Assembly: GCF_009834535.1 (NCBI RefSeq)
Contig: NC_045696.1
Location: 9,550,001-9,614,000 of the forward strand
Direction of reading: 5' to 3'
Source: Camelus ferus
Taxonomy: Eukaryota
Length of the DNA: 64,000 nt
Shown here: positions 4,171 to 60,190 of the stretch, piece after piece
Layout of the letters: each line of letters starts with the position of its first letter
Numbering within the stretch: the stretch's first letter is position 1
The notes under the pieces: model-generated
Database searches by the model: none
Seen by the model: the letters and a program-made list of their open reading frames with translations, nothing else
Told to the model about the DNA's origin: nothing
Made by a program: the position numbers and the translations under genes

Positions 4171-4560
4171 ATGATCCTGCCCAATGCCACAGCCGTGACG
4201 CCCTTTCTGACCACGCTGTGGCAAGGGACAGTTCAACAGGGCAGCAATTCATCCGGCCTGGCCCGCAGGGCCCCCGGTCATGATGACAGCAGGCTGGCCG
4301 CCCTCTACATCCTCATGGTTCTTGGCTTTTTCGGCTTCTTCACGCTGGGCATCATGCTGAGTTACATCCGCTCCAAGAAACTGGAGCACTCCCGAGACCC
4401 ATTCAACGTGTACATCGAGTCTGACGCCTGGCAGGAGAAGGACAAGGCGTACTTCCAGGAGCGGATTCTGGAGAGCTGCAGGGCGTGCTACGTCGTTGAA
4501 AACCAGCTGGCTGCCGAACGACCCAATGCATACCTTCCCGAGAGGAAGCCTTCGTTGTGA
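4171..4560 (+). CDS. KCNE1: Potassium voltage-gated channel subfamily E member 1 (minK/IsK), 129 aa, single coding exon
   Basis: ATG at 4171 (gccaggATGatc) to TGA at 4558-4560. Protein [13 protein letters not shown]...[48 protein letters not shown] is minK, with the FTL 57-59 triplet, D76, S102 and sequons N5/N26. A polypyrimidine tract and AG acceptor (tcttttagaag) lie at 4111-4121. The ORF-track start at 4102 is intronic. Confidence 0.99.
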
Positions 4561-12390: not shown

Positions 12391-14319
12391 TCTGAGTTTT
12401 TTTATTTTTAAACCATACTTGGTAACCTTGGCTCCATGTGTTCCGGTGGATGCGTATCCTGGAGCCAGCAAGTGCAGGAGCCACAGGTGAGAGGCAGGTG
12501 AAAACCCTCTGGAGTCTGAGAGCTGAGCATACTTCACAGTTCTTTGAAGTTTTGTCTGTTAAGCATGGAATATCAGAATTGGGGTTTTAAAAGAACAATG
12601 CCCATTGAATTATGCACTTTACAGTTTTTTGAGTGCTTTTGTATGTGTTATGTGTAACCTCCACATATCTAACCGTTGTTCTAGAAAACAGGTGCAGCGC
12701 CCGCATGTAAACCCGGCTGTCTCATCAGCGCCCTCTATGGGAACCCCTTGGGCTGCTCACCCAGGGAATCCGTCTGGGCAGCTCCGCGGGGACTGCCTGG
12801 TTGTTATAGCAGCCTCTCGCCGCAGGGTGGCAGAGCAGCCACGGGTACCACGGATCCCGCCCCGCAAGAATCCCGGAGTCCAGAGCTCTGCCTTCAGGGG
12901 TCTCCGGGAGCGCGCGTGGACAGACGCGGGCTAGTGGTGGTAGCATCAGGACAGGCTACGCTGAACTACTGAATCAGTAATTACGGGTGGCACCGAATCA
13001 GAGAGAGAATAAATTGCTGAATTTCTAATGGCTTTGTGGATAAAGTCAGGTCAACCTGCACACATACAGTTTTCACACCTTTTGTGTTTCTTCCTATTGT
13101 GAGGCAGGCGATCTCTCTCACTCAGGGGGACATTTCTACGAGAAGGTGCAAATCAGGGGCAGAGCCGGAGGTCTAGGGGAGTGGATTTAAAATGCTTGAA
13201 AACAGGAATTTCAAACATACTAGCACAGAAATGGCTAGGATTCCCTGTAAAGAGTTAATATGTTCATTGCAAATTCTTCACTCTTTAAAAAAAATAGATT
13301 TGCCTTTTCAATGGGTAATAGACACATAGTGAAAAAACAAAATAAACAAATAAATCATTTAAAAGGATTACTGCCCAGCGGGCAGTAAAAGGATTCTTAG
13401 GTCTCTTTTCAGAGACCTTCTTTGCACATATAAGAACATCCAGCTTTTATATGCAGATGGGGCACAACACACACCAATGTGCATCCTGCTTATTTTTTCC
13501 TGCTTACCAAGATGTTGAAGACTGGTCCTCTTCTAGACATCTGCCTCATTCCTTTTAATGCTTGAATAGGATTGCATTGAATGGATTTCCACCCTGTCTG
13601 TACCATTCCTGTCTTGATGGACATTTAAATGGTTTCCAATTTCTTGCTTGCAGTGACTAGACCAGTACGTATTTCCTGCAGTTACGTTCACTCTTAAGTC
13701 CCCCAAATTCCCAAGAAGGTATGTGTGTTATAAAATTTTAATAATACCAATTGACCTCAGTAATGATAATACTAGTAACTGACTTCGACGAGCTGTCACC
13801 ATGTCGGACACCGTTCGGACTGCTCTGTAAATTGTGGTGAAGGCACTGTGGATAGACCCACTTTACAAATGATCTTTACTTCTCTACTAGTAGTAAATGA
13901 GATCTCTTTATAATTTTAATTTCTATTTCTATCATTATGAATGAGAATGAGCATATTTTTATCTGTTCAAAAGACACGTGTACTTCTTTTTCTGTGACTA
14001 GCTGTCCATGCCTTTTGACCATCTTTCTGTTGAGTTGCTGACCTGTTTTTTTAATGTTAAAAGCCTTTTGATAAGTAAGAAACTTGACACTTTACCACAT
14101 GTGTTGCTAATACTTCCCCCAAATTTATCATTTATTTATATCTTGACTCAGTTGATCGTATTTTGCTTTTGCCACAAATACATTTTTCATTCTTATGTAG
14201 TTGGATTTATCAGTCTTGTCTTTCGTGATTTCTGACTTTTGTGTCATGCTTGGAAAGATGGCCACAATCTGGGATTGTAAAAATAAATCTCCCAAAATAC
14301 CAAAGAAGATTGTGGTAAA

Positions 14320-14580
14320 TGATGCTGTTATGAACATCAGGGTGCATGTATCTTTTTAAGTCAGTTTTTTTCACTTTCCTGGATAAATACCCAGGAGTGG
14401 AATTGCTGGATCACATGGTAGCTCTATCTTTAATTTTTTGAGGACTCTCCATACTGTTTCCCACAGTTGGCTGCACCAGTCTCCTTCCCATCAGCAGTGC
14501 ACGAGGGTTTCCTTTTCGCCACATCCTCACCAACCCTTGTTATCTGTTGTCTTTTTGTTGGCAGCCATTCTGACAGTTGT
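14320..14580 (-). mobile_element. L1 fragment (3' end of ORF2)
   Basis: ggataaatacccaggagtggaattgctggatcacatggtagctctat...ttttgaggactctccatactgtt...catcctcaccaac is standard antisense L1 ORF2 C-terminal sequence. Confidence 0.85.
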
Positions 14581-15619
14581 GGGGCGACTGCATCGCGTTC
14601 CTGCCTGTGCTGAAGTGCTTCCAGCGCTTCACCACTAAGCATAAGTCTAGGTTCTGACTTTGGATGTATTTAATTTAGCTTACTAGGGAAATATCTATCT
14701 TCTTATTGATCAAGATTTTAAAAATCAGGATGGAATTGAAATTGAACAAACACCTGTCTAAAAATCTTTGTAGAGGAACACGTTTTATTTAGACTTATTC
14801 ATATGGTAGATCACATTCATTGACTTCCTAATATTGAGCAATTCTTTCATACTTGGCACGATTGAATTTAGTTGTGATGTTTAATTATTTTAATGTACTA
14901 TTGGCTAATGCTGTATTTAGAATATTTACATCTTTATCCACACGTGAAGCTGGTCTGGGGTTACCTTTTATCGTGGTGGGTTTATCAAGCTGGGTTATCA
15001 TTGATGTACGAGCTTCATCAGAAAAACTGGGACGCTTTCTCCTTTCCGCACGCTCGAGAGCGGTTTTAAAACAGCATCCTTACCAGTGAAGGCTTAGGAG
15101 GGTTCACCTGTGAAATCAGCTAAAGCAGGTGCTTCTCTGGGGGAATGACCCACAAATTTTTCAGCATCTTCTATGGTAACTGTTATTTTCTGATTTTTAG
15201 TCTCTTTTAGGGTCAGTATTGGTCGTTTATATTTTCCTAGAAAATCATTTATTTAGTCAAAGTTTTCAAATTTATTTGCACAGAATTGAGCAGAGGAATC
15301 AAGGAGTCATTTCTTTGATTTCCTCTTTGTCTATTGCTATTTCATTCACAATTCTTATTTTGTATGTTTCTTTTCCTTCTTTTTTCTTTCTTCCTCTCTC
15401 TCTTTCTTCCTCTCTTCCTTTTCCTCCCTCCCTCTCTTTCTTTCCTTCCTTCCTTCTTTCTTTCTTTCAGTAACCAGGTCTTAGATATATTATTAACATT
15501 ATTGTTCTTCTTGTTTCTAAATTCTACTCTTATTCTTTTTAATAACTCCCCTCCCACTTTCTTTAGGGTTATTTTCCATTTCTAACATCTAGAATTAGGT
15601 GGTTAAATTAAAATTTTAA

Positions 15620-16900
15620 AGAAGCCTTATTGAGATATAATTTACATACCATAAAATCTACCCATTGTAAGGGTACAGTTTGATGAGGTTTAGTAAATTT
15701 ATACAATTGTGAACCATTACGACAATCCAGTTTCAGAACATTTCCATCAGGTTAAAAAATTCCCTTGTTCCTGTCTGCAGCAATCCCTGCTTCTACCTCT
15801 GGACCCAGGTAACACTGACCTGCTTTCTGTCCCTGTAATTTTGCCTTTTCTAGAAATTTTATATAGATGGAATCATACAGTATGTGGTCATTTGTGTCTG
15901 GTTTTTTTCACTCAAAATAATGCTTTTGAGATTCATACATGTTTATTGCGGAATAGTGTTCCTTCTAAAAGATATACCACATTTTGGTTTTCCATTCATC
16001 TGTGGATGGACATTTGGACTATTTCCAATTTGAGGCTATTACAACTGGTGCTGATATGAATGTTCGTGTATAAGTATTTATGAATATTTAATCTTTGTGT
16101 AGACATGTATTTTTATTTGTCTTGTGTAGCAATCTAGGAGTGGAATTGCTAAGTCATAGGGTAGGTATATGTTTAATTTTTAAAGAAATGTCTAAGCTGT
16201 TTTCCAGAGTAGCTGTATCTTTGAACATTCCCACCAGCAGCGTACGAGAGTCCCTGTCTCCCCACGTCCTTGCCAACATTCACTATCGTCCACTTTTTAA
16301 ATTACAGCCATTTTAGTGGATGTACAGTGATATCTCACTGCAATTGTGATTTTCATTTCATTAATGACTAACAATGCTGAGCATTTTTTTTGCGTGTTAT
16401 TTGCCATTTGTGTATCCACGTTAGTGAAGTGTCTGTTCAAATCACTTTCGGACTTCTTGTTGAGTTGTTTGTCCTCTCCTTATTAAATTGTGAGACTTTT
16501 CCCTGTGTTCTGAATGTGGTCCTTTATCAGACATGTGACTTGCAAGTATTGCCTACCAGTCTGGGTGACTTGTCTTTTCATTTTCTTAATCGTGTCTTTT
16601 GAAGATCATGTTTTGCATTTTGATGAAATCCTGCTTATCAGGGTTTTTTATTCTTTCATAAATTGTGCTTTTACTCTTATGTCTAAGAAATCCTTGCTTA
16701 ATCGAACATCACAATGATTTTCTTCTATGTGTCTGTCTAGAGGATTTATGGTTTTAGCTCTTACACTGAGGTTAAGCTAAACAACCCATCATGAGTTAAT
16801 GTTTGTGTGTGGTGTAAGATTAGGGTCTCAGTTCATTTTTTTTTAACATGAATATCTAATTGTTTCAGTGCCACTTGTTGAAATGAATGGCCTTTCCCCA
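15620..16900 (-). mobile_element. Old L1 (L1MA/MB-like) 3' region
   Basis: ttattgagatataatttacataccataaaa...gaatcatacagtatg...ggacatttgg...ggagtggaattgct...cattcccaccagcagcgtacgagagt...ttgatgaaatcc; AT-rich and degenerate. Further L1 debris flanks it from about 13.3 to 17.6 kb. Confidence 0.85.
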
Positions 16901-17959
16901 TTTTTTGGTAAATCTATTTTTATTTTTTCTTATTTACTAACGTTAGCTGTATGGCATAGGTTCGGATATGTGCTGTTTTTAATCTGGTTTTAGATATAAT
17001 TTTACTTTTAGTTTTGATTTTCTTTTTTGATCCAAGAATTTTCTGAGGTTTCATTTCCAGATAGAAAAATTTATATTTTTCAATTTAAAAAATTAATTTC
17101 TATTTTTAATAATTGTTGGTAAAGAATATTTCTACTTCAAAAAATGTTCTGAGGTGTCCTTTACAGCCAAATATATGATCTTTTCTGTGTGTGAAAATTC
17201 AATTGTTTTTTTAAAAAAGTGTATTTTGTATGTGATAGAGTTCAATATATATTAAATTAGTTCTGTCTTACAAAATCTGTCAATTATGTATCTTTATTTC
17301 TATACCTTTACTTAAAATATTTGTTTATTTTTTCTATTATGGACTGATAGATACATTTAAATTGCCTGCTTCTATTTTATTGTTATCTTTCATTTTCCAT
17401 AAGTTTTGCTTTATGAATTTTGATGCTATGTTATCTGGTGCATATATGCTAATGACGTTAGATGATCAGAGCAGATTAGTAAGTACATCCTTTTTTATTT
17501 AATGCTTTATGTTTTGAATTCAACATACATGGACATTTTAACATGGAAATTTCTTCTTTCTTTATGTTTATATTTATTTTGTGTGTTTATGCCCATTCTC
17601 TTTCTTTTGATGTAATTAAGCGATATAAAGCTTCCAATTATTAACTAGAACATGCCTGGTACATAGCAAGACTAATTTAGTGTTTGCTGAAAATAAAAAA
17701 TAAAAACAAAGCCCCTTTGTATTTCCTGACTACAAAGTATAATTAGTTATTGTTTGTGTTGGGTTTTTTTTTTCTATCTGCAATAGACAGGTAGGACAAA
17801 TACATTTAGTCTTGATTTATTATCTGGTTTTAGATCATACTTTTTGTTTTTAATGCTTTATTTTTCATTTTTCTTATTTGTTATATTTTCTTTGCTTTGC
17901 ACTTGGGAAGCCTCTGACAATTTGAAATGTTTATAATCTGCTTCTTCCAGTGGTTTTTT

Positions 17960-18237
17960 TTTTTTTTTCCTCATTAAGGTGAAATTCATGTGACATAAAA
18001 GTAATCTTTTTAAAGTATACAATTCAGTGACATCTGGTACATTCACAATATGATGCAACCATCACCTCTGCCTGGTTTCAAAACATTTTCATCACCCCAA
18101 GGGAAATTTCCTACCCATTAAGCATTATTCCCCATTCCTCCTTCTCCTGGCCCCTGGCAGCCACTAGTCTGCTTTCTGTCTTTATGGATTTACCTATTCT
18201 GGACCTGTCACATGAATGGAATCATACAATAAGTGAC
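17960..18237 (-). mobile_element. L1M 3'-end fragment with poly(T) tail
   Basis: A T-run, then ttaaagtatacaattcagtgacat...caaaacattttcatcaccccaa...tctgtctttatggatttacctattctggac...atggaatcatacaata. Confidence 0.8.
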
Positions 18238-23499: not shown

Positions 23500-23506
23500 A
23501 TGGAAT
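23500..23506 (+). CDS. SMIM34: SMIM34 first coding microexon (ATG GAA T | gtgagt)
   Basis: ATGGAAT is followed by a consensus donor GTGAGT at 23507. The phase-1 T joins GG at 26317-26318 to give M-E-W, matching the MEW N-terminus I recall for human SMIM34A. The downstream exon has no in-frame ATG (in-frame TAA at 26238). Confidence 0.85.
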
Positions 23507-24779
23507 GTGAGTATTCTGCTCCGACGCAAGGGCGAGCTGTTCTAGAATTTCTCATACATTTCACATTATTAAATCGTAAGTGTAAAATGACACAGATGAA
23601 AAGGTTTGTCTCTTCTATATAGAGAAGGTACCATCTAACTGACTCATATATTTAATAAGACAGTGAAGAATAATGTACTGAAATAGTTAAAATAGTGTGT
23701 TTATTTCATGTGGAAAATGGACTGGTTTTCAAATGATTTAATGCTCTGTAGTTCTTAGTTGGGTATATTTTATATGTATTTGAACATATCACATCATTCT
23801 ATAACAATTGACAGAAAGGTCTATGCATTTATACATGTGTCCCAAGTTTAAACAAGTTCTTTTGCCCTAACTAAGGTTTATGATGTCTGTGTTAGGTTGA
23901 TTTTTTTGAAATAATTACGGGAATGTTTTCTTCCCTATTTAAGTTCTCAAACCATTCCATCAACAGTGGTATAAGATTCCTGGTCATTGTACTATTTCTT
24001 ATGAGCGACCAATTTTATATCCTGCAATCTGTCAGTTTGGGCTTTGCGACATGTGATTTCTGCAGTTATTTTAAAATAGTTTCTCCCTTTATCTCAAAGT
24101 AATAAGATTATTCATTCATTCAGCAATTAACTATAATGAAAAATATTGGTCTCTCTGAGCCTTGCATTAGCAATATAAACTAGCAACAAGCAAACATCAA
24201 GTAGAAAGCACTTATGGAACACCTTTGGTCTACCTGACAGGCTATGGGATTTATCCTATGACATGTCTGAATACATCTGGGTTCACATTGAGCAAGAAAT
24301 GAGGATCTGAACCCATAAAACTCAGCTGGAAAATGTCTCACAGGATTAGGTACTACTTCTCTGACTTTTATCATTTCATTTTCACTTGCTCCCCTAGTAG
24401 AGAAAACAGTTTTGAAATAAACAGCAGTTAAGATCTTAATCTTCTGGTCTTGGAAGGTCACTTGGTGTCTTTACCCAGAGGCACTTCACCAAGGAGGCCA
24501 GAAAAGTGCCCATTTGTACTCTCCCATTTTTAAAATTAATTTCTTTGTGAAAATACACATGGTACAAAATGTACAAAAGGGCATCAGGGGGAAGTACACC
24601 TCCTTCCCCCAATTCCTTCCCCCTGGGCAACCACAGGTACCAATTTCTTGTGTATTCTCCCAGAGATATGTTACACATGTATAAGCTTCAAACAAATCAC
24701 ATAACCCCCTTTATGTGTAGGATTGTATCATCTATATCACTGTACACATTTTTATTTGTTAATATTTAGTACCAAGAAA

Positions 24780-26130
24780 GCTCATTGTTACTTCTTGTGG
24801 CTATATAGTACTCCACTGCATGGAGATTCTAAAATATGTTAAACCATCCCCCATTTGATGCTACTCAGGTTGTTCTTCAGCATATAAGCAATGCTACAAT
24901 GACTAACCTTAAACGTGCACTGTTTTGGACATGTTCCAGCATATTTTTAGGATAAATTCCTACAGGTAGAATTGTTGGGTTCAGGGTAAATGTGTAATGT
25001 CAATAGATCTTCTCAATGTGTCTTCCATATTGGTTGTATAAAGTTACACTCTCACCAGCAATTAAACAAAGGCCCGATAGCCCTGCAGACATATCCAGTG
25101 TGTTCTGAAGCATCATGAGTTTGCAAACCTGATAGATAACAAAATGTTATCTCTCTGTAGTTTTAATTTGCATTTCTTTTACTATGAGTGACACTGAAAA
25201 GCTTTCTTTATGCTCAAGGTCCATTTCTTTTTCCCACCTAATTGTCCACATCTTTGCACATTTTTCTACTGGGGTTTTGGACATCTTCTTATAGAACTGA
25301 AGGCGATTAACAAGTTTAGTGACATAAGTTGCAGCTCTCCTCCAGTTTGTCATTTGTCTTTTGGTTTTATTATATGCAATCACTTTAAACTTTTCTATGT
25401 AGTTGAAGTTATATTTTCTTTCTTTCTTCTTTTTTTCCATCTCAGAATTTTTGTGTAGGCTTAGCAAGGGATACCCCACTCCAGGATGATAAAGGAAAAA
25501 AGTCTACCATGCTTTTTTTCTAGTGCTTTAAATTGTTTCTTTTTTTTAATGTGAAAATCTTTGATTTATCTGGACTTTTCTTGGACATAAGGTAAGAGCT
25601 ATGCATCCAGTGCTATCTTGTTCTAATGCTGCTTGTTGAAGAATCCATCCTTTCCTTCCTGATCCTAAATGCCCCTTTATTATCTACTAAATTCCAATTC
25701 CAGTTCTACTGATGTCGTTACGCTGTTCTGTTGGTCTGTCTGTGTATCATATCACACTGTTTCAGCTATGGTAGTTTTACAGGGAGACTTTTTAGGGAGA
25801 AGAGACCCCCCATGCCATTTGCAAAGCCCAGTAAGCCCCAGCTGGGCTGTGGGCGAATAAGGCACTCATTCATTCAAAGAAAAAAAAGAAAAGAAAACTT
25901 ATTTTTCTGGCTGACTAGTTATAAATTTCTAGCGAGGCTGATTTCCACTCATCAGTCTTTCTTTCAGATTTTTCCTAATTCGTCTTGTTAGTTGCTTTTT
26001 CAGTAATGCATAGTTTGTCTATTTCACAAAGAAATCCTACTGATACTTGTATTGCAATTACGTTGGTTGTACGGATTATTTTAGGGACAACTGACATCTT
26101 TATGATGTTGTGTCTCCTATTCCAGAACTT
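24780..26130 (-). mobile_element. Degenerate L1 in the SMIM34 intron
   Basis: Minus-strand translations SVSLIVKEMQIKTTER and HNIIKMSVVPKIIRTTNVIAIQVSVGFLCEIDKL resemble the L1 ORF2 motifs SSLIIREMQIKTT and [23 protein letters not shown]. Confidence 0.75.
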
Positions 26131-26316
26131 GGTGTTTTGAACTCTTTTGATTTTTAAAAATATATTGACATACATGTTGTTAGGCACCTGCCTATTGAAT
26201 AGAGTCTCTTCCAGCAGTCCCATTTCCCCAGCTGATGTAAGGACACTGTCATTGGCTTAGCCAGGCAGCCTTCAGCACAGAATGCTGGGTCTCATGTGGA
26301 CCTCTCTGTTTCTCAG

Positions 26317-26708
26317 GGGATCAGGGAGCCCCCAACCAGACCCAGGCCAACGCTGTTCTGGGGAACCTGCTGAGGGACCCCACGGAGGGGAGGAACAGCA
26401 CCAACTCCACCAGGGCCCTGAAGCTTCTAGATGGGACCAGTGCCGCCTGGTACATCCTCACCATCATCGGCATCTACGGAGTGATTTTACTCTTCCGGTT
26501 GGCCAGCGACATCCTCAGAAAGAACGATAAGTCCTTGGAAGATATTTATTACTCAAATCTGACATCAGAACTCAAAAAGAAAGGGTTCCAGAACAAATGC
26601 CCTTCACTGACCGTTAGCAACAAAGCTGTCCTGCAGCTCAACCAGGCCAGCCTGGAACCCACGCGTGGAAACATCAGGCCTCATACCAAAATTCAAGGGG
26701 TCCCTTGA
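26317..26708 (+). CDS. SMIM34: SMIM34 main coding exon; spliced product 132 aa single-pass membrane protein
   Basis: Acceptor ctctctgtttctcAG at 26315-26316. The frame reads (W)DQGAPNQTQANAVLGNLLRDPTEGRNSTNSTRALKLLDGTSAAWYILTIIGIYGVILLFRLASDILRKNDKSLEDIYYSNLTSELKKKG...GVP*, recognisable as SMIM34. Syntenic position between KCNE1 and FAM243. Candidate AATAAA at 27504-27509. Confidence 0.92.
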
Positions 26709-28023
26709 AAGTCGAGGCAAGCAGATTGGAGACAAAAGATTCAACCTTCCTGCTGGGGAGAGTAGCTGTGAGTTCACCTGGAACCTTGAGAGAGGAGTCG
26801 AGCCCCTGAGTGGGGCTGGAAGAGCATTGCTGAGCAGTGGGTCCTTCTGGGAGATGGAGGTGTGACCAAAAGCCAGCGTCTCATTTCCTTCTCAGGCTTC
26901 TGGGTGCTTTGAGAAGAAAGAGCAGGAGTAGTAGCTTCCAGCCATATTATCATTCACTGGACAATCTTAAGCTCCAGGAAAGGGTGTGGGACAGCCGGCA
27001 TCCTCAGAGGAATCTGGGAGATTCCTGGGGTGTACATAAAGGTGGCCTCTTGTCATGGGAAGAAGGCTGAATTTGGAGTCAAATGCCTTGGATGAAAATA
27101 CAACTTCTAGAGGGTCACATGAACTCTGAGGGGCCAGCGGCTCACTTGGAACATGTGAGGGCTGGATATATGGCCCCGGAACGCTATTCATTCTAAAGAC
27201 TCTGATAAGAATATAGAAACAAAGTTATCAATATCAACACTTTCATTTTCAAAAGTTCTTCATTTTCATTGAGAGGGTAGAGTCCACTGGAAAAAAAGCA
27301 TTCATTTTGGAGTTGGAAGAACCAAATTCTAGTCTGAGTTTGACTATTGGCCATTCTTGGTGGCCTTGCACACACAACTTCCCCTCTCCAGACCTTGGTT
27401 TCCTTACAGATACAAGGAGGCTCATGATGTCAGTGTTCTGCCAGTCTTATAAAGTAGGTAAGAGCTAGTGAGCTCATGCACGTGAATGTATTTTGAGAAG
27501 TAAAATAAATATGTAAATATAAGGCTTGTTGTGGTGCTGGTGATGATGGTGATGTTGATGGTGGTGGTGGTGAAGCTCTTGTGGACCAGGGAATGACTGG
27601 TCTACTGGTAATTAGTCTGTAAGCAATGGCTGTGTTACCTTATTCTACAGGAGAATCCCTCTGCATAACAGTTGATGACCTGTGCTCTGAATCAAATCCA
27701 TGAGACTCAAGTTGTACACATAGATGAAACAGTCACTTTTAGTTTCTGTTACCTTAGACATCATATGATTCATTCAAATGTTTTTACAAATATTTATTAC
27801 TTATATTACTTATATATTTGTCATTGCTTCAAAAAGAGTAAGATCTTGCCTAGATGACTGGTTAATTTAGAGACATTGTGATTAGTCCAATTTCCACAAG
27901 TGGCTTTCAGTAGGCAAAGAGAAAAATTATATTTTATACCAACTTCTGTGAAATTTCTCTAGTTTGGATTTTGTTGGTGTCCCCTGCACTACAAATAATT
28001 TTCCCCCATCTGGGCCACAACCA

Positions 28024-28054
<31 letters not shown>

Positions 28055-30035
28055 CATATTTTCCACATCATCATCTCACGGGTTCTCCAGCAAAAGTCTT
28101 GGTTTGTTTACATCGTTAGGGCTGGGCTCCATTCCTGTGTTTGAGATGCCTACAGGGCAGGATAAAACAGTAGACACAAAGATGGACAAAAATGTAATCT
28201 GCAGCGAATAAGAATACAGAATGCACTGAAATGGGAGCCAAAGGTCAGAACTGAAGTGAATTTGAAGGCAGAATCCTCCCCTGCCTTCACTCAGCACCCC
28301 CTAATCTGCATGTGGGACTCCATCTGGCTCTGAGACAGCTGAAACTGCTCCCAGCCCAAGGGCTGAAATGAAAGACCTAGTTAATATGGTCAGTGAGTTC
28401 CCTCTCCAGCTTCACTGACTGGGTCCTGGCTGGACCCATGACATCAGTAAGCCCAGCCCTCCGAATGGCGGGAAGCACTTCAGCGGGGATGCTGGGACGC
28501 AGAAGCCCCCTCTCGTGCTGGGTGGTGTTCAAAGGAGATCTGAGTGTGAAATTGCTGGAGCCCTTTTGTCACCATCAGAAAAGCCAATCTGAGGGCAAAA
28601 GCCAACACAGAGAGGAGAACTGAGGAAAGCACAGTGGCTAGAGTCCTGATCAAAGTGTGCCCAAGGCCTTAATTTCCCAATGGACTGTTTTAGTCCATGA
28701 GCCAACAAATTTCCTTTATTAAGTCCATTGCAGGTAAGCTTTCTGTCCCCCTCAGTCAAAAGTGTCCTCAGTGATACCGCTGGAGAAGTAATTTCCTGAA
28801 GGACCGGGGCCTTGAAGTAGAATTTGATAAAAGTATTGTGATATGGTAAGGTGGGACCATTTCTTTCACCAAGATTTTTATATTTCCAGGATTTTGTGTT
28901 TATAGGGAAAACACAGATTCAGTATTCCTTCTTATGTCAGCTCAATGGCCACTTGTAAGATTTCTCATTACTTGACCTCTCGAAGTGCATTCAGTGAGAT
29001 TTTATTCCATTTAATCCCCAACCCCTGAATCTTATCATGGAAACCCCTAGGAGGGCCTGTCATGTTAGCCATGAGGTCACGACTGGCTCCAAATGTGTTT
29101 CCTAAGGAGCAAAAGCCACTGTCTTCCCGTTGACACCCAGACACAGCACATTACATGGGATCCAAGGACATTTTCCCTGGCACCTCACTGTTGCCTGAGC
29201 CAACTTCACCCACTTCCTGGGGAGCTGGTCTGAGAGGTTCCCCGGGAGATGTGTCCTTGGACGGGAACTAGGTCTCCGTAGGCTCCGTTTTAAGCAAGAC
29301 TGGTGGGAAACAACTTCAAGTATTATGGACACTTTGTTCAAAATCCCTTGGATTTAAAATGTTCAGGCTCAGAGCAAGTAATCGCTGTCTTGGCAAAGCC
29401 TGTGTAGCTGGACTAGTAGGGAAGGTGCCGGCAACACAGCGGAAGTGTTCAGTTCCGTGAGTGGGGAAGACGTTTGCATGTTTCACCAACCCTGGTGGAG
29501 ACAGGAACGGAGCAAACTGATTCCCAACATTCTAGACACTTTTTCCTTCTTTGTCCCATAGTAAGTTTGCCTCCAGTTTAGCAAATCAGGTCAGATGAAG
29601 GCCTTCCTCTGAAATGGAAATTATTTAAAGTGTACAAGGGAACTGTTTAGCTGTCTCCAGAAATGGCTTCCTCTGGGATTTGTGGTTGTGGTACCCGGGT
29701 TTGTAACAAATCAAATCAAGTTCCCCAGAGCTTTCCTGGGTAATTGGAATGCATCTATTCTAAATAAAAGTCTAATCAGCTCAGCTGCATTATGATTTGT
29801 CTGATGTGATATAATGATCACAAGATTTTTTAAAAGGATTTTAAAAAAGAATTTAGAGGCTAAGCATTTGTTAGTATTTACCCAGCTCTTCCTAGAGTGG
29901 CAGGTGGCTCTGATTCTCAGAACTGATGCTGATCGTTTGTCTAGATTTTTCACCAGAGCAGATGAACGTCAACTCACCCTTCAATCAAAAAGTTCTTCTT
30001 TTGGCAAAATTGAAACCAACTGTAGCTAACTCACA

Positions 30036-30142
30036 AGAAAAGAAGGAAAGAAAGGAAAGAAAGGAAGAAAAGAAAGGAAAGAAAGGAAAGAAAGGAAAGA
30101 AAGGAAGAAAGGAAGAAAGGAAGAAAGGAAGAAAGGAAGAAA

Positions 30143-30207
<65 letters not shown>

Positions 30208-30241
30208 GAAGGAAGGAAGGAAGGAAGGAAGGAAGGAAAGG
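30036..30241 (+). repeat. Compound polypurine microsatellite, irregular GA-rich units then (GAAA)n-(GGAA)n
   Basis: Seen directly in the sequence. Confidence 0.97.
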
Positions 30242-31800
30242 ATCTGTGGGATCTGTGGGAAGGCAAGTGAGGTGGCTCACAGAATCACAAGGACAGCAGC
30301 TTATCCCGGCCTCAGGAGGGACAGAAGCCCTCACTCAGGGGCCCCAGCTGGAAAGCCTTCTCTCTAGGGCCCTCCCAGAAGATGGCTTAGCTCCCATGTG
30401 TTCTCTTTGTGCCTCTGCTCAAGTCAAATGTCAGAGGAGAGCACAGCACTGGATGGGATACAGCAGGTGCCCCTCCACCCCCAACCCCGGACCAGTCGCA
30501 GAGGGTGGGCCCAGGGAGCGGTGAGCTCTGATTGGCTGAGGTTGGATCATGTGCTCCCTCATGTGACCTGAGGGCACTAAGTCTGTGAAGACAATGCCCT
30601 TAAAAGGAACCATTGCTCAGATATCACCCTCTGTGAAGCTTTTTTGATCTCAAAGGCAGACTTGTTTTCTCCTCTTAGGGCTACTGTAGCACTTGGTAAA
30701 CACTTGGATGGATCAAAGAGAAAATTTTATTTAACAGAATTTCTCCAAGGATGGGAACTGCATTTGTTACCAAGTATTCCATACAGGAAGCCAGACCCCC
30801 AAGGGCTCCAGGATGTGGTGGAACTATTCTACAGGAGTTCAGGAGAAGAATTTGCTTCTCAAGAGAGGTAGCAGGGAGGAAAAGATGGAGGAGGGACTTA
30901 GGGATGTGGGAGGGTGGCGGACTACACTGAGGAATGTCTTTGCAATGGCCTGCCCACCACCGCTCCCACCAGCCCTGGTCTACAGTGTTATAAAACTCAC
31001 GAAACAAATGCTTGAAGGAGAGGTCTGCAAGACAGCAAAGGCACTCAGTGACGTGTCCAGGCTGAGGCAGGTGGAGTTGAAGTGGCAGGCAGACGTGGGA
31101 CGCTGGGGACGGAAGAGCGCTGGGCTAGTTTCAGCTTAGTTTTAGTTTAGCTTCAGCTAAACTATCAAGAAGCAACAAAAGTCATGGGGAAGCTGGTACC
31201 AGATTTTACCAAATCCCCGTACACTGGGTGTGGGGAAGAGGGAGGGCGCAGTGAGTGCTTGCAGGAGGCGCCTGAAAATTCGATCCATCTGTTAGAGCAC
31301 TTATCATATAATGCTTACCATGCAACGCCACAAGTACTAGCCTGCAGTCTCTGTCCCCCACTGACCCATGAGAATATGATTTTAAGAATAAGGACAAGAT
31401 CTTTTTAGTTTCGACACCATCCACTCTTTGCAAAACACACAGGAAATATTTTCTAAATGAGTGAATGATGTGTACATAGTGTGTCACAATGGATGCTATT
31501 CCATTTGGGGCAGTAGGTACCAACAATTTTCTCTAGGCACTTCCTTCTAGTGGAAATGTCCTGTCCCCAGACAAGATATAATGATCATGGATTTTGCACA
31601 GAGATTGGTTGCCCTTAAGGTACACTTCCAACAAGCAGAGAGAGCTGGCTCATTATTGGTTATAATTTCTATGTTTACACAGTACCTTTCTCTTTCTATC
31701 TCGTTTCAGTCCTTATAACAGCCATGGGAGGTGGGTAAGCTCAGACATGCTCTCTTCCAGAAAGCCTGCTCCTCGTGCCTAACATCCTACAGATGTGCTA

Positions 31801-37149: not shown

Positions 37150-37914
<765 letters not shown>

Positions 37915-48569: not shown

Positions 48570-48734
48570 TTAGTCATCTTTCTTCTCTGACTGCTTCTTC
48601 TTTTCAGCCTCCAGTTTTTGCTGCTTTGCTTCCAATCTCTTCCTTTGGTATATTTTGACTCCGGCAAATGCCAGGCAGAGAATTAATGTTTTGGCTGCCA
48701 AGATATACAGCAGCACAGGTATGTGCTCAAGAAC
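48570..48734 (-). CDS. SMIM11: SMIM11 main coding exon (VLEHIPVLLYILAAKTLILCLAFAGVKIYQRKRLEAKQQKLEAEKKKQSEKKDD*)
   Basis: Minus-strand acceptor tccttctttcAG (plus-strand ctg at 48735-48737), then 54 codons and TAA. One TM helix plus a charged tail, as in SMIM11/FAM165B. A donor (cag|GTATCG) follows 17 nt after the stop (GT at 48551-48552). Confidence 0.95.
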   Translation of the reverse strand, partial: VLEHIPVLLYILAAKTLILCLAFAGVKIYQRKRLEAKQQKLEAEKKKQSEKKDD

Positions 48735-51719
48735 CTGAAAGAAGGAGACCATTCTAAGTGCTCCAGAACTGGTAAGGAACGCTCTTCTACGTGCCTTCAT
48801 TTGACAAACATTCACAGACAGGACCACCAGAGGACGACGGACAGAATAACTCTGCTCTCTCATAACCTGACCGGGCACTTTGCCGATCACCCAGGCCTTC
48901 TGCGTCTGAGGCAATGACACGGTCCAGAGCAAGGAGCCAGAGCCAGGGGCCTGGTTACAGCCCCCCCTCCGCCACTGACAGGCCATGCGACCTGGGTCAG
49001 TCCCCTGACTTTCCTGAGCTTCTGTCTCTTCATCCACAAAGGGAGGCCGGTCCAAACCTTCCTTCTGAATTCTCCACTTAGATCGGTGGCTATGATTTTT
49101 CTCTTGGTTCCAGCTACTCATTAGCACTGGTATTTGAAGGTAAAATAAATACAAAAATAAAATACAATACAAGTTAAAACATTAAACTTAGCTACTCATT
49201 CACTGGTCCTATAGTTAATTTCCTGTTGGAAGTTTTAACCCATTGGCTAACATGACGTCTGGGGAATAACCAGGGGTTAGAATTACTCACTCTCTGCACT
49301 AGCAGGCATTATTATGAAGTCCTGTATGTCACAATCAAATCTAAAGGCAAATGCTAAACGCGGGGTCCCCTCCACCTGGGACGAGAGACAGAGTGATGCG
49401 TGCAACTTGCTCCCGTGCATCCAGGATGCAAGGCAGCTGGGGCTGAGGCCTTGTGGTTGAGCACAAGCAGCTTAGAACACTGATTTGGTGTCCAAGTCGT
49501 TCCTCCCTCAGACCTACAGCAAATCTCCCCAACCTCCCCCAAATAATCCTCTAATTCATCTACTTTCTTGGAAGTTCACATTTTAGAGATGAGGCTTGGC
49601 TCTATGTTTATAAGCCAGATAAGAAAGGAAAGAACGTTAAATTTTACCTCCTTGGAAGCAAAAATCACCAGTTTGGAGATACAAACTTCCTTTCACGCTC
49701 ACTGGGACTTCCCAGGCTGAAGCGCTGACTTACCCTGGCAGAGGTTAAGCTTTCAATTATCTCAGTCTCTATGGATGAGCCTCTGGAGTCCTATCATAAC
49801 AGGGCCCCATCACAGCCCACAGTTCCCATGACCTAAAACCCAAAACTTAGCTGTAGAAGGTACAGGAATGTACCTCGCAGCCAGAAGTTAGAAAACCCAC
49901 TGAAATCGAAACCCATCAACAATTGGACCCAAGTAAGTTTAGGTTTGGGTATTTACTTTCATTTTAAAGGTAGTAGAGAGGAGGCAGCAAGACGCAGAAG
50001 TTTCCGGACTGGGAGAGGGGTGGAGCAGTGGCAGTGGAGGTCAAGGACACCACAAGGGCTAAAGCCGAAGGTTTCAGGGCCCCTGTTCCTGCATCTCTCT
50101 TGGACAGATTTGCTAATTCCTCAGTTGTGTTAAATTTCTTCCTTTGATTTCTTTCTAACAAGCCCTTCATGTTAAGTCCCCAAACATGCAAATCTTCAAG
50201 GAGGTAAATGAATGAAATAATGTTGGGGTGGACTAGATCTATACCAATTAAAAATACAATACCTGTGTAATGAGAATGACTGACTTTTAAAATAGTCTTG
50301 CTCCTGCACAGGCAGTGTTGCCTGTCGCTGATGGCCACCAGCCGACAGAGCCAGAAAGGCAAGCCCAGGATGCACTGGGGGTTCCGTAGTCCTTCCTCCT
50401 CCTGGGACTCACCGAGTCAGGGCGTGGGGAGGGGCCATTCCTTTCTCATACTACATGGAAGGACCCCACCCTTCCCCCACCTTCCTAAACACGAGGTTGC
50501 TCCCTGGTAGCCCTGAAGCTGTGTCTGCCCAAAGTTGGAACGGTTCGGGCAGATTTTGTTTCTGACACAGGAAAGGACTCTTTTGTGACAAGCAGAGTTG
50601 GCCCGGGTGGTCAAGGGGGGTTGATATCACTCTGTAATTAAAATGAAACCTTGCTCTGTGCAGTGCCTTGCCGGTATACACCAGCATCGCCTGGGAACTC
50701 ATTAACCCCGGGCCTCTGCAATCAGAAACTCTGGGGGTGGGGCTGCAATCCTTATTTTACCTGGTCCTCAAGGGGGCTTTGATGCACCCTGCAGTGAGAG
50801 AACGCCAGCCTCGGAGCCCCAAGTGCCACACTCTGATCTCTGTTGCTGAGGCCTCCAGAACCAGGTACCGCCTGTCATCCCTACTGACTTCAAGCTCTGC
50901 AGAGGCTAAAAATCCTCCCCTAAATCTGCCCCTACACTGCTCTCTGCTCCCCCCACCTCACTTACATCCTCTCACAGCCTCATCTTTCCCTCCCAACCTT
51001 TCTACGGGCAGCTCTGGAGCCCAAGTACATGCATAACAGACCCTCCCACATTGCCACTCCTTCACAGAATCCTCACTCTTCCTCCTGGACCTCAGCCAGG
51101 CTCTTCCTGGACAACAGTCCCCAGAGCCCTCTTGCAGGGCCCCCGGGCCCCACAGAGCTGGAGCTGGAGGGGGTCTGTTCTCTCCCGGCTCCCAGTTCCT
51201 GATTCCAGACCTTTCCAGTTCTCCTTGCAATGGAAAGCCAGGGGCTGTTCTGAACAAGGAAATGCTTAGAATAACTGAAGAAATACATACAATGAGATCC
51301 TAAGTTTGAAAGCACGCACATTACACTCATATATATATGGAAAAAATACTAGAAGAAAATATACCAAATTGTTAGTAGTAGCCATCTCTGGATAGTGAGA
51401 TGATACATGATTTGGATTTGATTTTACACTTTTCAAAGCATCTGATTGCTCTCTTAGCTAACTTCCACCCCACCCCACTCCACCCACTTTGGGGAGGTAA
51501 TGTGACACCCCCCTTCCCCCAGGAAGAGCTGCTGTTGCCCGCAGCCCTCTGGGTGCTCGCGGCTAACAGGAAACTCTCTGGTTGCCCCTGAACTCCGCTC
51601 CCACCAACTGCATCTGTGTTTCACAGGGGTCAATTGTTGTTCACGCCGCAGCCAGTTTATTTAAGTAGTATGTGATAGTAGAATAGATAACAGATAATTT
51701 ATTTAAACACAACATTAAT

Positions 51720-59818: not shown

Positions 59819-60190
59819 TCAAGGAGACATTATGAGTCCCGCTGCACCAGTGCTCTCAGGGATGTTGGCCTTGGATTCTTCCAGATTCAAGATCTGACTC
59901 TTGTACTTCTCCTGCCAGTCCTCCACAATATACTGGTGGTAGGGGTCGTTGGAGTGTTCTCGTCTCTTGGATTTCACCGTGCTCACCAGGATGGCTACGA
60001 TGATGAAAGAGAACATCCCAATCATCACCATGAGGTACAAGATGACGTAATAGAAGTTCTCGGCATCAACTTTGGCCTGCAGAGCCTCTTGTTCAACTGT
60101 CGTGTTTCTGCGCCAATTGTCCATGTAAGTAATAAAAACCCTCTTGAAGGCATCTTCCAGTGTCTGTGTCAGATTGGAAAGAGTAGGCAT
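59819..60190 (-). CDS. KCNE2: Potassium voltage-gated channel subfamily E member 2 (MiRP1), 123 aa, single coding exon
   Basis: ATG at 60190-60188. [31 protein letters not shown]...[50 protein letters not shown] is MiRP1. Acceptor ttgCAGCAG lies just upstream (60200-60205). The ORF-track start at 60208 is intronic. Confidence 0.99.

What the first reader, a model, noticed from the sequence alone, without database searches (positions are those of the whole stretch)
23500..26708. SMIM34 appears to be an overlooked KCNE-family paralog located between KCNE1 and KCNE2
Seen in the sequence: the reconstructed 132-aa protein aligns without gaps to this window's KCNE1. KCNE1 43-76 [34 protein letters not shown] versus SMIM34 45-78 AAWYILTIIGIYGVILLFRLASDILRKNDKSLED gives 12/34 identities, including YIL, both TM glycines, S64, K69 and D76. 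The next residues PF align to IY (KCNE2 has DPY). The architecture also matches: no signal peptide, an N-terminus of about 45 aa with N-glycosylation sequons (N9, N29, N32, against KCNE1 N5/N26 and KCNE2 N6/N29), one TM helix, a basic juxtamembrane segment, similar length (132 vs 129/123 aa), and the same strand as KCNE1 about 19-22 kb downstream. Established: KCNE1 FTL57-59 sets KCNQ1 gating and D76 is a key residue (D76N causes LQT5). In SMIM34 the triplet reads ILL and an Arg (R63) sits in the TM. Inference: a tandem-duplication-derived auxiliary K+ channel subunit or dominant-negative modulator that is annotated only as a small integral membrane protein.
Basis: partly seen in the sequence, partly recalled or inferred. 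Interest (0 to 1): 0.8.

Follow-up and report, generated by a model that had tools for sequence, protein, structure and literature searches.

The report
SMIM34 is a divergent KCNE-family gene
A small, strongly conserved membrane-protein gene lying between the potassium-channel helper genes KCNE1 and KCNE2 is their distant relative, so it may be an unrecognised seventh helper subunit, but its channel partner has not been tested.

Summary
It aligns without gaps to this window's KCNE1 with 12 of 34 identities. Only 2 of 20,000 composition-preserving shuffles reach that.

Homology to the KCNE family is well supported, but only through profiles and intermediate sequences.
- The window protein itself gets no Pfam ISK_Channel (PF02060) hit.
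- A profile of 50 eutherian SMIM34 proteins, searched against 1.84 billion proteins, finds newt, bird, sturgeon and platypus relatives. Four of these pass the curated PF02060 cut-off.
- Profile comparison chains eutherian SMIM34 to these relatives (99.1%) and these relatives to KCNE1-4 (96.0%).
- Shuffled decoys and real single-pass control proteins score far lower.

A tree places the SMIM34 lineage with KCNE1 and KCNE2, apart from KCNE3, KCNE4 and KCNE6. It is not KCNE6, which lies near a PAX gene elsewhere in this genome.

No paper I could search states the relationship. A role as a channel subunit is inferred, not tested. Verdict: a new member of a known family, interest 0.7.

The parts
23500..23506 (+). 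SMIM34 coding exon 1: start codon plus 4 bases (ATGGAAT), followed by a GTGAGT donor
   Evidence: joined to 26317 it gives an open 132-aa frame
23604..23627 (+). Optional in-frame 24-nt mini-exon (8 codons) with a purine-rich acceptor context and a GTACCA donor; gives a 140-aa isoform
   Evidence: its N-terminus matches the annotated Vicugna pacos SMIM34 P0004; use in this species not shown
26317..26708 (+). SMIM34 main coding exon (residues 3-132 and the stop); P0003 = 26319-26705
   Evidence: 94% identical to Vicugna SMIM34, 112 homologues
26334..26411 (+). Presumed extracellular N-terminal part with three N-glycosylation sequons (N9 at 26334-26342; N29 and N32 at 26394-26411); collinear with KCNE1 N5 and N26
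   Evidence: sequons kept in 42, 34 and 42 of 50 eutherians; alignments
26442..26516 (+). Transmembrane helix, residues 45-69, with both KCNE-type glycines (G54, G57), the I-L-L triplet position (59-61) and R63
   Evidence: hydropathy; AlphaFold helix P0003 39-88; 12 of 34 identities to KCNE1; near-invariant in 50 eutherians
26517..26585 (+). Juxtamembrane cytoplasmic helix, residues 70-92 (RK-ND-K-S-L-E-D-I-Y-Y-S-N-L-T-S-E-L-K-K-K-G); most positions kept in 42 or more of 50 eutherians (lowest: I79 31, K90 28, N72 39); D78 aligns with KCNE1 D76
27504..27509 (+). First AATAAA after the stop codon: candidate polyadenylation signal
   Evidence: pattern match only
4171..4560 (+). KCNE1 coding sequence (129 aa, single ORF): the closest canonical relative
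   Evidence: PF02060, 229 bits
59819..60190 (-). KCNE2 coding sequence (123 aa, single ORF): the second relative in the cluster
   Evidence: PF02060, 50.2 bits; 99% to Vicugna KCNE2

Best explanation
SMIM34 is a real protein-coding gene and a highly diverged member of the KCNE (minK/MiRP, Pfam ISK_Channel) family of single-pass channel subunits. It forms a seventh lineage, most likely born by an ancient local duplication in the KCNE1-KCNE2 cluster.

Shown here: homology, conservation, gene model and position.

Inferred from sequence: a type I topology with a glycosylated extracellular N-terminus without a signal peptide, one membrane helix, and a helical cytoplasmic juxtamembrane segment.

Inferred from the family: it docks through its near-invariant membrane helix and juxtamembrane helix onto a partner channel in the membrane. 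The best guess for the partner is a voltage-gated K+ channel alpha subunit such as KCNQ1. The gating effect should differ from KCNE1, because the T58-equivalent is F or L, an Arg sits in the inner half of the helix, and the D-P-aromatic motif has lost its proline.

My odds: homology about 0.9; still a K+ channel subunit about 0.4-0.5.
For: 1. Real gene. 112 homologues were found, and all the named ones are eutherian 'small integral membrane protein 34'. In 50 aligned sequences 9 columns are invariant and 37 nearly invariant, concentrated in residues 41-92.

2. Exhaustive profile search with those 50 sequences against 1.84 billion proteins gave 24 hits at E<=1e-3. The 7 weakest hits are:
- platypus 'SMIM34A' (59.3 bits);
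- newt 'SMIM34' (45.0 bits);
- three bird proteins (41.5, 38.2 and 35.3 bits);
- a sturgeon protein (39.3 bits);
- one unrelated nematode GPCR (names).
The newt and the three bird proteins pass the curated PF02060 cut-off of 22.1 bits, with 34.1, 33.6, 34.7 and 36.4 bits. A second newt scores 31.1 bits.

3. hhalign:
- eutherian SMIM34 against the 8 non-eutherian relatives: 99.1%, P 7.5e-19;
- those 8 against KCNE1-4: 96.0%, P 4.3e-9;
- all 58 against KCNE1: 94.6%, P 6.6e-8 over 80 columns;
- eutherian profile alone against KCNE1: 76.9%, P 2.1e-5.

4. Controls:
- 0 of 291 zone-shuffled KCNE1 sequences reach the real hhalign score (36.5; null mean 16.1, maximum 29.3).
- HMM decoys reaching the real score: KCNE1 0 of 2000 and KCNE2 2 of 2000 for the eutherian HMM; 0 of 2000 for both with the non-eutherian HMM.
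- Real single-pass controls from the same genome (SRTM1, an SRTM1-like ORF, DUF5527, SMIM11) score 10.6-17.6.
- Among 916 window ORFs the profile ranks self, then KCNE1, then KCNE2.

5. Independent rankings:
- KCNE1 chains are the top 3 of 177,635 PDB sequences, aligned collinearly (profile 12-82 to KCNE1 4-76).
- Among the 50 eutherians PF02060 is the commonest sub-threshold Pfam family (13 of 50; the next family has 6 of 50).
- The ESM Atlas puts a KCNE1 cluster third, at 0.95, after two SMIM34 clusters.

6. Newt, bird, sturgeon and platypus proteins each have their best six-frame hit in the 2.09-Gb genome at this exon. KCNE1 comes second for the newt and the bird.

7. In the tree the SMIM34-like clade has support 93/83. 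It is sister to KCNE2 (95/84*), then KCNE1, apart from KCNE3, KCNE4 and the KCNE6-like ORF (95/88*).
Against: - The window protein has no PF02060 hit at E<=10. Its exon is not among the 13 six-frame PF02060 matches in the genome.
- The best eutherian E-value against PF02060 is 0.0046, below the cut-off.
- The eutherian profile found no canonical KCNE1-5 at E<=1e-3 in the 1.84-billion library. Its PDB hits are not significant on their own (E 0.27-0.65).
- hhalign of the eutherian profile is weak against KCNE2 (6.5%) and against the mixed KCNE alignment (32.6%).
- There is no signal against KCNE3: 575 of 2000 decoys do as well, and hhalign gives 1.2%.
- As a single sequence, P0003 finds only itself in the genome.
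- Orthology of the newt, bird and sturgeon proteins is not secure. Forcing them together with KCNE1 costs 14.3 log-likelihood units, but p-AU is 0.051, so this is not rejected. Their genomic position could not be checked. Only one KCNE1 sequence and no KCNE5 were in the tree.
- Eutherian SMIM34 lacks the proline of the D-P-aromatic motif and the T58 equivalent, and its start codon is on a separate exon.
- No functional, binding or expression evidence was obtained.
Confidence: 0.8

Rival explanations
1. Homologous to KCNEs but put to a new use. SMIM34 keeps the KCNE scaffold but no longer regulates K+ channels. Its near-invariant membrane and juxtamembrane helices bind a different membrane partner.
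For: - The residues best tied to KCNQ1 gating are changed. The T58 equivalent is F in 48 of 50 eutherians, the proline after D76 is absent in 50 of 50, and R63 lies within the helix in 43 of 50.
- The eutherian juxtamembrane segment is very conserved yet unlike that of KCNE1 or KCNE2.
- PF02060 does not recognise the eutherian proteins.
Against: - KCNE members themselves differ widely at the triplet and still bind KCNQ1. This is family knowledge; passages in PMC11659587 describe the contrasting KCNE1 and KCNE3 triplets.
- Both helix glycines, S66, K71 and D78 are kept in register with KCNE1.
Confidence: 0.4
2. Chance or convergent resemblance: SMIM34 is an unrelated single-pass protein whose hydrophobic helix and basic flank merely look like a KCNE.
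For: - Direct matches are weak: 27.7 bits by pairwise BLASTP, 13-14 bits to KCNE1 in the PDB, and no Pfam hit.
- Membrane helices are prone to spurious similarity. One nematode GPCR reached E 2.1e-4.
Against: - Zone-preserving shuffles and real single-pass controls do not reproduce the scores.
- The similarity is collinear over about 80 residues, including the non-membrane N-terminus with its two sequons.
- Intermediates pass the curated family cut-off.
- The gene sits between its two best-matching relatives.
Confidence: 0.05
3. A decaying relic: like eutherian KCNE6, SMIM34 is a former KCNE gene on its way to becoming a pseudogene, and the ORF is not functional.
For: - This species carries changes at two near-invariant positions, F60L and N67D.
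- The N-terminal few residues and the first-exon usage vary between species' annotations.
- Passages in PMC13289392 report little brain or vascular expression and limited constraint data in humans.
Against: - The frame is intact in all 50 aligned eutherians spanning Afrotheria, Xenarthra and Boreoeutheria. 9 columns are invariant and 37 near-invariant.
- Conservation is focused on the helix and juxtamembrane region, as expected under purifying selection on a protein.
Confidence: 0.04
4. SMIM34 is the eutherian form of the recently described KCNE6.
For: KCNE6 is described as a hidden KCNE gene that is poorly annotated in many vertebrates (PMC11659587).
Against: - KCNE6 lies near pax3 and is short or non-functional in eutherians (section 8 of PMC11659587).
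- This genome has a separate KCNE6-like ORF on contig C5, 108 kb from a paired-box gene and 0.65 Mb from KCNE4.
- That ORF groups with KCNE3, not with SMIM34 (98/82*).
Confidence: 0.01

Closest known systems
KCNE1 (minK, IsK), in this window at 4171-4560
   Same: - Similar length (129 against 132 aa) and the same strand and gene cluster.
- No signal peptide, and two N-terminal sequons in register.
- One membrane helix with both glycines, followed by a basic juxtamembrane stretch.
- S64, I66, K69 and D76 equivalents are kept.
- It is the best canonical match in every test.
   Different: - SMIM34 is only about 29% identical over 95 residues and fails PF02060.
- The T58 equivalent is F or L, and an Arg sits in the helix.
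- There is no proline after the D76 equivalent, and the distal C-terminus is unrelated.
- The start codon is on its own exon.
KCNE2 (MiRP1), in this window at 59819-60190
   Same: - Member of the same cluster.
- Sister group of the SMIM34-like clade in the tree (95/84*).
- The non-eutherian HMM scores it 21.6 bits, with 0 of 2000 decoys as high.
   Different: - Similarity to eutherian SMIM34 is weaker than for KCNE1 (hhalign 6.5-7.2%).
- It lies on the opposite strand.
Salamander 'small integral membrane protein 34' (Pleurodeles P0246, Lissotriton P0254) and uncharacterised bird proteins (P0247, P0249, P0251)
   Same: - They share the pre-helix and helix motif with eutherian SMIM34, and an S-N-(I/L) motif after the helix.
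- Their best genome-wide hit is this exon.
- They fall in the same clade in the tree (93/83).
   Different: - They pass PF02060 (31-36 bits).
- The newts keep the KCNE-type D-P-Y…Y-I-E motif.
- Their genomic position is unknown, and a KCNE1-side placement is not rejected (p-AU 0.051).
KCNE6 (Kasuya et al. 2024, PMC11659587)
   Same: It is also a KCNE member that went unnoticed because it is small and poorly annotated.
   Different: - It lies at a different locus, near pax3.
- It is closest to KCNE3.
- It is degenerate in eutherians, whereas SMIM34 is intact and conserved there.

Membership tests
KCNE / Pfam PF02060 ISK_Channel | Scores above the curated PF02060 gathering cut-off (22.1 bits) | tested here: not met
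   - The window protein has no hit at E<=10, and its exon is absent from the 13 six-frame matches in the genome.
- 13 of 50 eutherian orthologues hit at E<=10, best E 0.0046, below the cut-off.
- The cut-off is met by the newt and bird relatives at 31-36 bits.
KCNE / Pfam PF02060 ISK_Channel | Profile-level similarity to KCNE proteins exceeding that to unrelated single-pass proteins | tested here: met
   - hhalign chain of 99.1% and 96.0%; all 58 sequences against KCNE1 give 94.6%.
- 0 of 291 shuffles reach the real score.
- 0 to 2 of 2000 decoys reach the real score for KCNE1 and KCNE2.
- Real controls score 10.6-17.6 against 36.5-63.6 for KCNE1.
- There is no signal to KCNE3.
KCNE / Pfam PF02060 ISK_Channel | Single-pass type I architecture: short N-glycosylated N-terminus without signal peptide, one membrane helix, cytoplasmic C-terminus | tested here: met
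   This is at sequence level only.
- One hydrophobic segment and none at the N-terminus.
- 2 or 3 sequons before the helix in 48 of 50 eutherians.
- One long helix in the AlphaFold model, which has low overall confidence (pLDDT 57.3).
- Orientation and glycosylation were not shown experimentally.
KCNE / Pfam PF02060 ISK_Channel | Juxtamembrane KCNE motif (S-K-basic … D-P-aromatic … Y-I) | tested here: not met
   - In eutherians the S, K and D equivalents are kept, but the position after D78 is I, V or L, never P.
- The newts keep the D-P-Y…Y-I-E motif.
KCNE / Pfam PF02060 ISK_Channel | Coding sequence in one exon, as for KCNE1 and KCNE2 in this window | tested here: not met
   The start codon and 4 further bases lie on a separate exon 2.8 kb upstream. 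392 of the 399 coding bases are in one exon.
KCNE / Pfam PF02060 ISK_Channel | Paralogy by position: lies in a KCNE gene cluster | tested here: met
   The window order is KCNE1, SMIM34, FAM243-like, SMIM11-like, KCNE2. The gene table quoted in PMC7358007 (passage) lists the human start coordinates in the order SMIM11A, FAM243A, SMIM34A, KCNE1, the same order as here.
KCNE / Pfam PF02060 ISK_Channel | Binds and modulates a voltage-gated K+ channel alpha subunit (KCNQ1, hERG, Kv4 and others) | not testable with these tools
KCNE6 | Locus next to pax3; closest to KCNE3 | tested here: not met
   A separate KCNE6-like ORF lies at C5:83554186-83554401, 108 kb from a paired-box exon. It groups with KCNE3. 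SMIM34 is on contig C1.

The most novel reading that the evidence does not exclude
SMIM34 is a functional seventh KCNE subunit ('KCNE7') that has existed since early bony vertebrates and is intact in all eutherians, humans included. It co-assembles with KCNQ1 or another Kv channel and gives it distinct gating or suppresses it. That would add an unstudied modifier to the chromosome-21 KCNE1-KCNE2 arrhythmia locus.
Probability: 0.35. Interest if true: 0.85.

Novelty: new member of a known kind. Interest (0 to 1): 0.7.

Why it matters
KCNE subunits set the behaviour of cardiac, inner-ear and epithelial K+ channels, and KCNE1 and KCNE2 are long-QT genes. A 2025 review counts six members, KCNE1-5 plus KCNE6 (PMC13054283, passage). 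KCNE6 is degenerate in eutherians (PMC11659587).

A further lineage that is intact and strongly conserved in placental mammals, and that sits between KCNE1 and KCNE2, would change three things:
- It would give channel physiologists a directly testable new candidate subunit.
- It would bear on how variants and dosage changes in this interval are read (long QT, trisomy or monosomy 21).
- It would revise the evolutionary picture of the family, since both the KCNE1/2 and the KCNE4/6 regions would hold clustered paralogues.

The papers that mention SMIM34 call it uncharacterised (passages in PMC13289392). Databases catch the link only in part: PF02060 is carried by 13% and 31% of the members of the two SMIM34 Atlas clusters and by the newt proteins.

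Tried and rejected
- Splicing and expression. The look-up of sequencing runs listed RNA runs whose contigs hold 0.13-0.37 of the sampled words of exon 2 plus its 3' flank. Single proteins were used instead.\n- P0003 alone against the genome found only itself and one weak match of 18.6 bits.\n- A search seeded with newt, sturgeon and platypus proteins added only 2 proteins. No marsupial, reptile, frog or teleost relative was returned. That is not evidence of absence, because small ORFs are often not annotated.\n- The extended newt gene model P0252 (311 aa) carries no second domain that would show a neighbour.\n- The AlphaFold model has pLDDT 57.3. I ran no fold search because a lone helix at that confidence gives meaningless matches.\n- No complex prediction was run, because no KCNQ1 sequence was available.\n- Zebra-finch KCNE1P (PMC3711925, passages) is a 97% similar copy of KCNE1 and is unrelated to this question.\n- search of earlier findings returned nothing on this locus.\n- The Reprimo family accession taken from the Atlas row is not in the Pfam copy, so that control was dropped.\n- Literature searches that found no statement of the relationship:\n - 'SMIM34': 11 papers.\n - 'SMIM34A': 5 papers.\n - 'KCNE' with 'SMIM34': 4 papers by listing; the 3 whose passages I read mention it only in gene lists or in passing, and the other 2 (PMC12779367, PMC12652779) were seen by title and abstract start only.\n - 'KCNE7': 0 papers.\n - 'LOC388820': 0 papers.
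Full report
**What is there**

The window is part of contig C1 of a 2.09-Gb mammalian assembly. Its KCNE2 is 99% and its SMIM34 94% identical to the Vicugna pacos proteins, so it is a camelid.

The gene order is as follows:
- KCNE1, 4171-4560, + strand.
- SMIM34, 23500-26708, + strand.
- A FAM243-like ORF, 37159-37914, + strand.
- An SMIM11-like ORF, within 48570-49121, - strand.
- KCNE2, 59819-60190, - strand.

The human gene table quoted in PMC7358007 (passage) lists SMIM11A, FAM243A, SMIM34A and KCNE1 at successive start coordinates, which is the same order.

**Gene model**

ATGGAAT at 23500-23506 is followed by a GTGAGT donor. A strong acceptor ends at 26316, and the main exon runs from 26317 to the stop at 26706-26708.

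A 24-nt in-frame mini-exon (23604-23627, poor splice signals) would give 140 aa with the N-terminus annotated for vicugna.

The protein has one hydrophobic segment and no N-terminal one. It has three sequons before the helix and a fourth, conserved one after it. AlphaFold with 50 sequences gives a short helix at P0003 10-15 and one long helix at 39-88, and is otherwise of low confidence (mean pLDDT 57.3).

**The observation**

The ungapped 34-residue alignment to this window's KCNE1 has exactly 12 identities. In the same register, 2 of 20,000 shuffles that keep the membrane and juxtamembrane compositions reach 12. Over all registers, 0 of 300 do (maximum 11).

Pairwise BLASTP results:
- SMIM34 against KCNE1: 27.7 bits (E 2e-5 for the pair, 29% over 95 residues with 6 gapped positions).
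- SMIM34 against KCNE2: 25.4 bits.
- KCNE1 against KCNE2: 53.5 bits.

So the resemblance is real but weak, and it would not survive a database-sized search as a single sequence. P0003 against the whole genome in six frames finds only itself. Pfam gives no hit at E<=10.

**A real, constrained gene**

A word-indexed search returned 112 homologues. All the named ones are eutherian 'small integral membrane protein 34', from Afrotheria, Xenarthra and Boreoeutheria.

In an alignment of 50 of them, 9 columns are invariant and 37 nearly so. Almost all of these lie in residues 41-92, which cover the pre-helix D-G-T-S, the helix and about 25 juxtamembrane residues. Sequons at N9, N29 and N32 are kept in 42, 34 and 42 of 50 sequences, and 48 of 50 have two or three sequons before the helix.

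This is the pattern of a protein under purifying selection whose helix makes specific contacts. It is not the pattern of a decaying ORF.

**Homology to KCNE**

1. Of the 50 eutherian proteins scanned one by one, 13 give a sub-threshold PF02060 hit (best E 0.0046). That makes it the commonest family; the next, Acyl_transf_3, has 6.

2. The profile of the 50 was scored by HMMER against all 1.84 billion representatives and gave 24 hits at E<=1e-3.
   - The 17 strongest are SMIM34-type. I looked up or already knew only some of them; P0236-P0242 were not looked up.
   - The 7 weakest are listed here, with names:

   | Hit | Bits |
   |---|---|
   | platypus 'SMIM34A' | 59.3 |
   | Pleurodeles 'SMIM34' | 45.0 |
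   | bird (Calidris) | 41.5 |
   | sturgeon | 39.3 |
   | bird (Cyanistes) | 38.2 |
   | nematode 7TM receptor (spurious, 4 short stretches) | 37.4 |
   | bird (Cyanoderma) | 35.3 |

   - Against Pfam, the newt and the three birds pass the curated PF02060 cut-off of 22.1 bits, with 34.1, 33.6, 34.7 and 36.4 bits. The sturgeon is sub-threshold (17.8 bits) and the platypus has no PF02060 hit. A second newt (Lissotriton) scores 31.1 bits.
   - The newt protein carries both the SMIM34 pre-helix motif and the KCNE-type D-P-Y…Y-I-E motif.

3. hhalign results:

   | Comparison | Probability | P-value |
   |---|---|---|
   | Eutherian SMIM34 vs the 8 non-eutherian proteins | 99.1% | 7.5e-19 |
   | Those 8 vs an alignment of KCNE1, 2, 3, 4 | 96.0% | 4.3e-9 |
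   | All 58 vs KCNE1 (80 columns) | 94.6% | 6.6e-8 |
   | Eutherian profile alone vs KCNE1 | 76.9% | 2.1e-5 |
   | Eutherian profile alone vs the mixed KCNE alignment | 32.6% | 4.7e-4 |
   | Eutherian profile alone vs a 103-sequence KCNE2 alignment | 6.5% | 0.0056 |

4. The KCNE1 chains are the top 3 of 177,635 distinct PDB sequences for the eutherian profile. They are aligned collinearly from the first sequon to the D76 equivalent, but with E of only 0.27-0.65.

5. The ESM Atlas ranks two SMIM34 clusters first and second. PF02060 is carried by 13% and 31% of their members. A KCNE1 cluster ranks third at 0.95. The bird protein's nearest clusters are the same two SMIM34 clusters.

**Controls for membrane-helix bias**

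- Zone-preserving shuffles of KCNE1 give hhalign scores of mean 16.1, sd 3.8 and maximum 29.3 (n=291), against 36.5 for the real sequence.
- hmmsearch against 2000 zone-shuffled decoys per target:

   | Target | Eutherian HMM: bits (decoys as high) | Non-eutherian HMM: bits (decoys as high) |
   |---|---|---|
   | KCNE1 | 14.6 (0) | 36.8 (0) |
   | KCNE2 | 10.1 (2) | 21.6 (0) |
   | KCNE4 | 2.0 (183) | 18.3 (2) |
   | KCNE3 | 0.2 (575) | 0.0 (799) |

- Real single-pass proteins of similar build from the same genome (SRTM1, an SRTM1-like ORF, DUF5527/C10orf105-like, SMIM11) score 10.6-17.6 in hhalign with the eutherian profile. KCNE1 scores 36.5, and 63.6 with the non-eutherian profile.
- Among all 916 stop-to-stop ORFs of 40 aa or more in the window, each of the three profiles ranks the SMIM34 exon first, the KCNE1 ORF second and the KCNE2 ORF third, then noise.

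The signal is therefore specific, and it is strongest to the two chromosomal neighbours.

**Place in the family**

PF02060 against the whole genome finds these matches:
- KCNE1, 228 bits.
- KCNE2, 49.5 bits.
- KCNE4, on contig C5, 34.1 bits.
- KCNE3, on contig C10, 29.6 bits.
- A 98-aa open KCNE-like frame at C5:83.55 Mb, 20.1 bits.

That last ORF lies 108 kb from a paired-box gene and 0.65 Mb from KCNE4. This matches the published position of KCNE6 near pax3, where KCNE6 is said to be degenerate in eutherians (PMC11659587, section 8 read in full; passages). So SMIM34 is not KCNE6.

A maximum-likelihood tree (36 rows, 134 columns) gives:
- eutherian SMIM34 plus platypus: 99/98*;
- with sturgeons, birds and then newts: 93/83;
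- that clade sister to KCNE2: 95/84*;
- then KCNE1;
- KCNE3, KCNE4 and the KCNE6-like ORF on the other side: 95/88*.

Caveats on the tree:
- It contains one KCNE1 and no KCNE5.
- There are several long branches.
- The root was chosen by me.
- Forcing newts, birds and sturgeons together with KCNE1 costs 14.3 log-likelihood units, but p-AU is 0.051, so this is not rejected.

The newt, bird, sturgeon and platypus proteins each have their best six-frame hit in the 2.09-Gb genome at this SMIM34 exon, at 31.3, 24.5, 21.6 and 41.5 bits. KCNE1 is second for the newt (27.5 bits) and the bird (22.1 bits), so the margins are small. I could not check where these genes lie in their own genomes.

**How it most likely works**

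Shown: SMIM34 is a conserved KCNE homologue inside the KCNE1-KCNE2 cluster.

Inferred: it originated by an old local duplication, before the split of ray-finned and lobe-finned fishes if the sturgeon gene is orthologous. The eutherian branch then diverged fast. It lost the proline of the D-P-aromatic motif and acquired a start codon on an upstream exon.

Inferred from the family: the glycosylated N-terminus faces outward. The helix, with both glycines in KCNE register, and the invariant juxtamembrane helix dock onto a partner channel.

At the KCNE1 triplet position the eutherian consensus is I-F-L (I-L-L in this species). R63 lies four residues further on, and D78 matches D76. The importance of the triplet and of D76 is family knowledge; the triplet is discussed in PMC11659587 (passage).

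I put about 0.4-0.5 on the partner still being a Kv channel, and about 0.4 on a new partner.

**Novelty**

In the searchable library, 'SMIM34' occurs in 11 papers and 'SMIM34A' in 5.
- In the four whose passages I read it appears only in gene lists, association tables or in passing.
- The rest I saw only by search listing.
- 'KCNE7' and 'LOC388820' give no papers.
- Recent KCNE papers count KCNE1-6 only (PMC13054283, passage; bioRxiv 10.64898/2026.04.28.721385, passages).

Automatic annotation already tags some orthologues with PF02060, so the link is latent in databases but, as far as I could search, not in print. About 1.7 million PMC articles and subscription journals were not searchable.

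Noticed in passing
G000:C5:83554186-83554401 (locus L007, - strand): A KCNE-like open frame (98 aa stop to stop; 20.1 bits to PF02060, no internal stop). It lies 108 kb from a paired-box gene exon and 0.65 Mb from KCNE4, and it groups with KCNE3 in the tree. This fits the eutherian remnant of KCNE6 described in PMC11659587.
   Followed up: partly
window 26487-26489 and 26508-26510 (SMIM34 residues 60 and 67): This species has L where 48 of 50 eutherians have F, and D where 48 of 50 have N. Both positions lie in the near-invariant helix region, and vicugna keeps F and N. This is either a lineage-specific change or relaxed constraint.
   Followed up: partly
window 37159-37914 (+): An intact 251-aa ORF in the position where the human gene table lists FAM243A, between SMIM34 and SMIM11. 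The family name is recalled, not tested.
   Followed up: no
window 48570-49121 (-): The C-terminal part of this ORF is a short single-pass protein with a K/E-rich tail, in the position of SMIM11. Used as a negative control, it shows no similarity to the SMIM34 profiles.
   Followed up: partly
window 29926-30270 (+): A 114-aa ORF made mostly of a K/E/R/G low-complexity repeat. It is probably a purine-rich simple repeat, not a gene.
   Followed up: no
window 14001-18000: An AT-rich stretch (GC 0.30-0.36, strongly negative AT skew) inside an otherwise 44-55% GC region. It is possibly an interspersed repeat.
   Followed up: no
SMIM34 residues 83-85 (window 26556-26564): A fourth sequon, N-L-T, is kept in 48 of 50 eutherians but lies after the membrane helix, on the presumed cytoplasmic side. 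There it could not be glycosylated, so its conservation must have another reason, such as a binding or phosphorylation site.
   Followed up: no
ESM Atlas rows: The next look-alike families after KCNE are other small single-pass proteins (SRTM1, C10orf105-like, Reprimo). One mixed cluster carries both SRTM1 (20%) and PF02060 (12%) labels. hhalign showed no link between SMIM34 and SRTM1 or DUF5527.
   Followed up: partly
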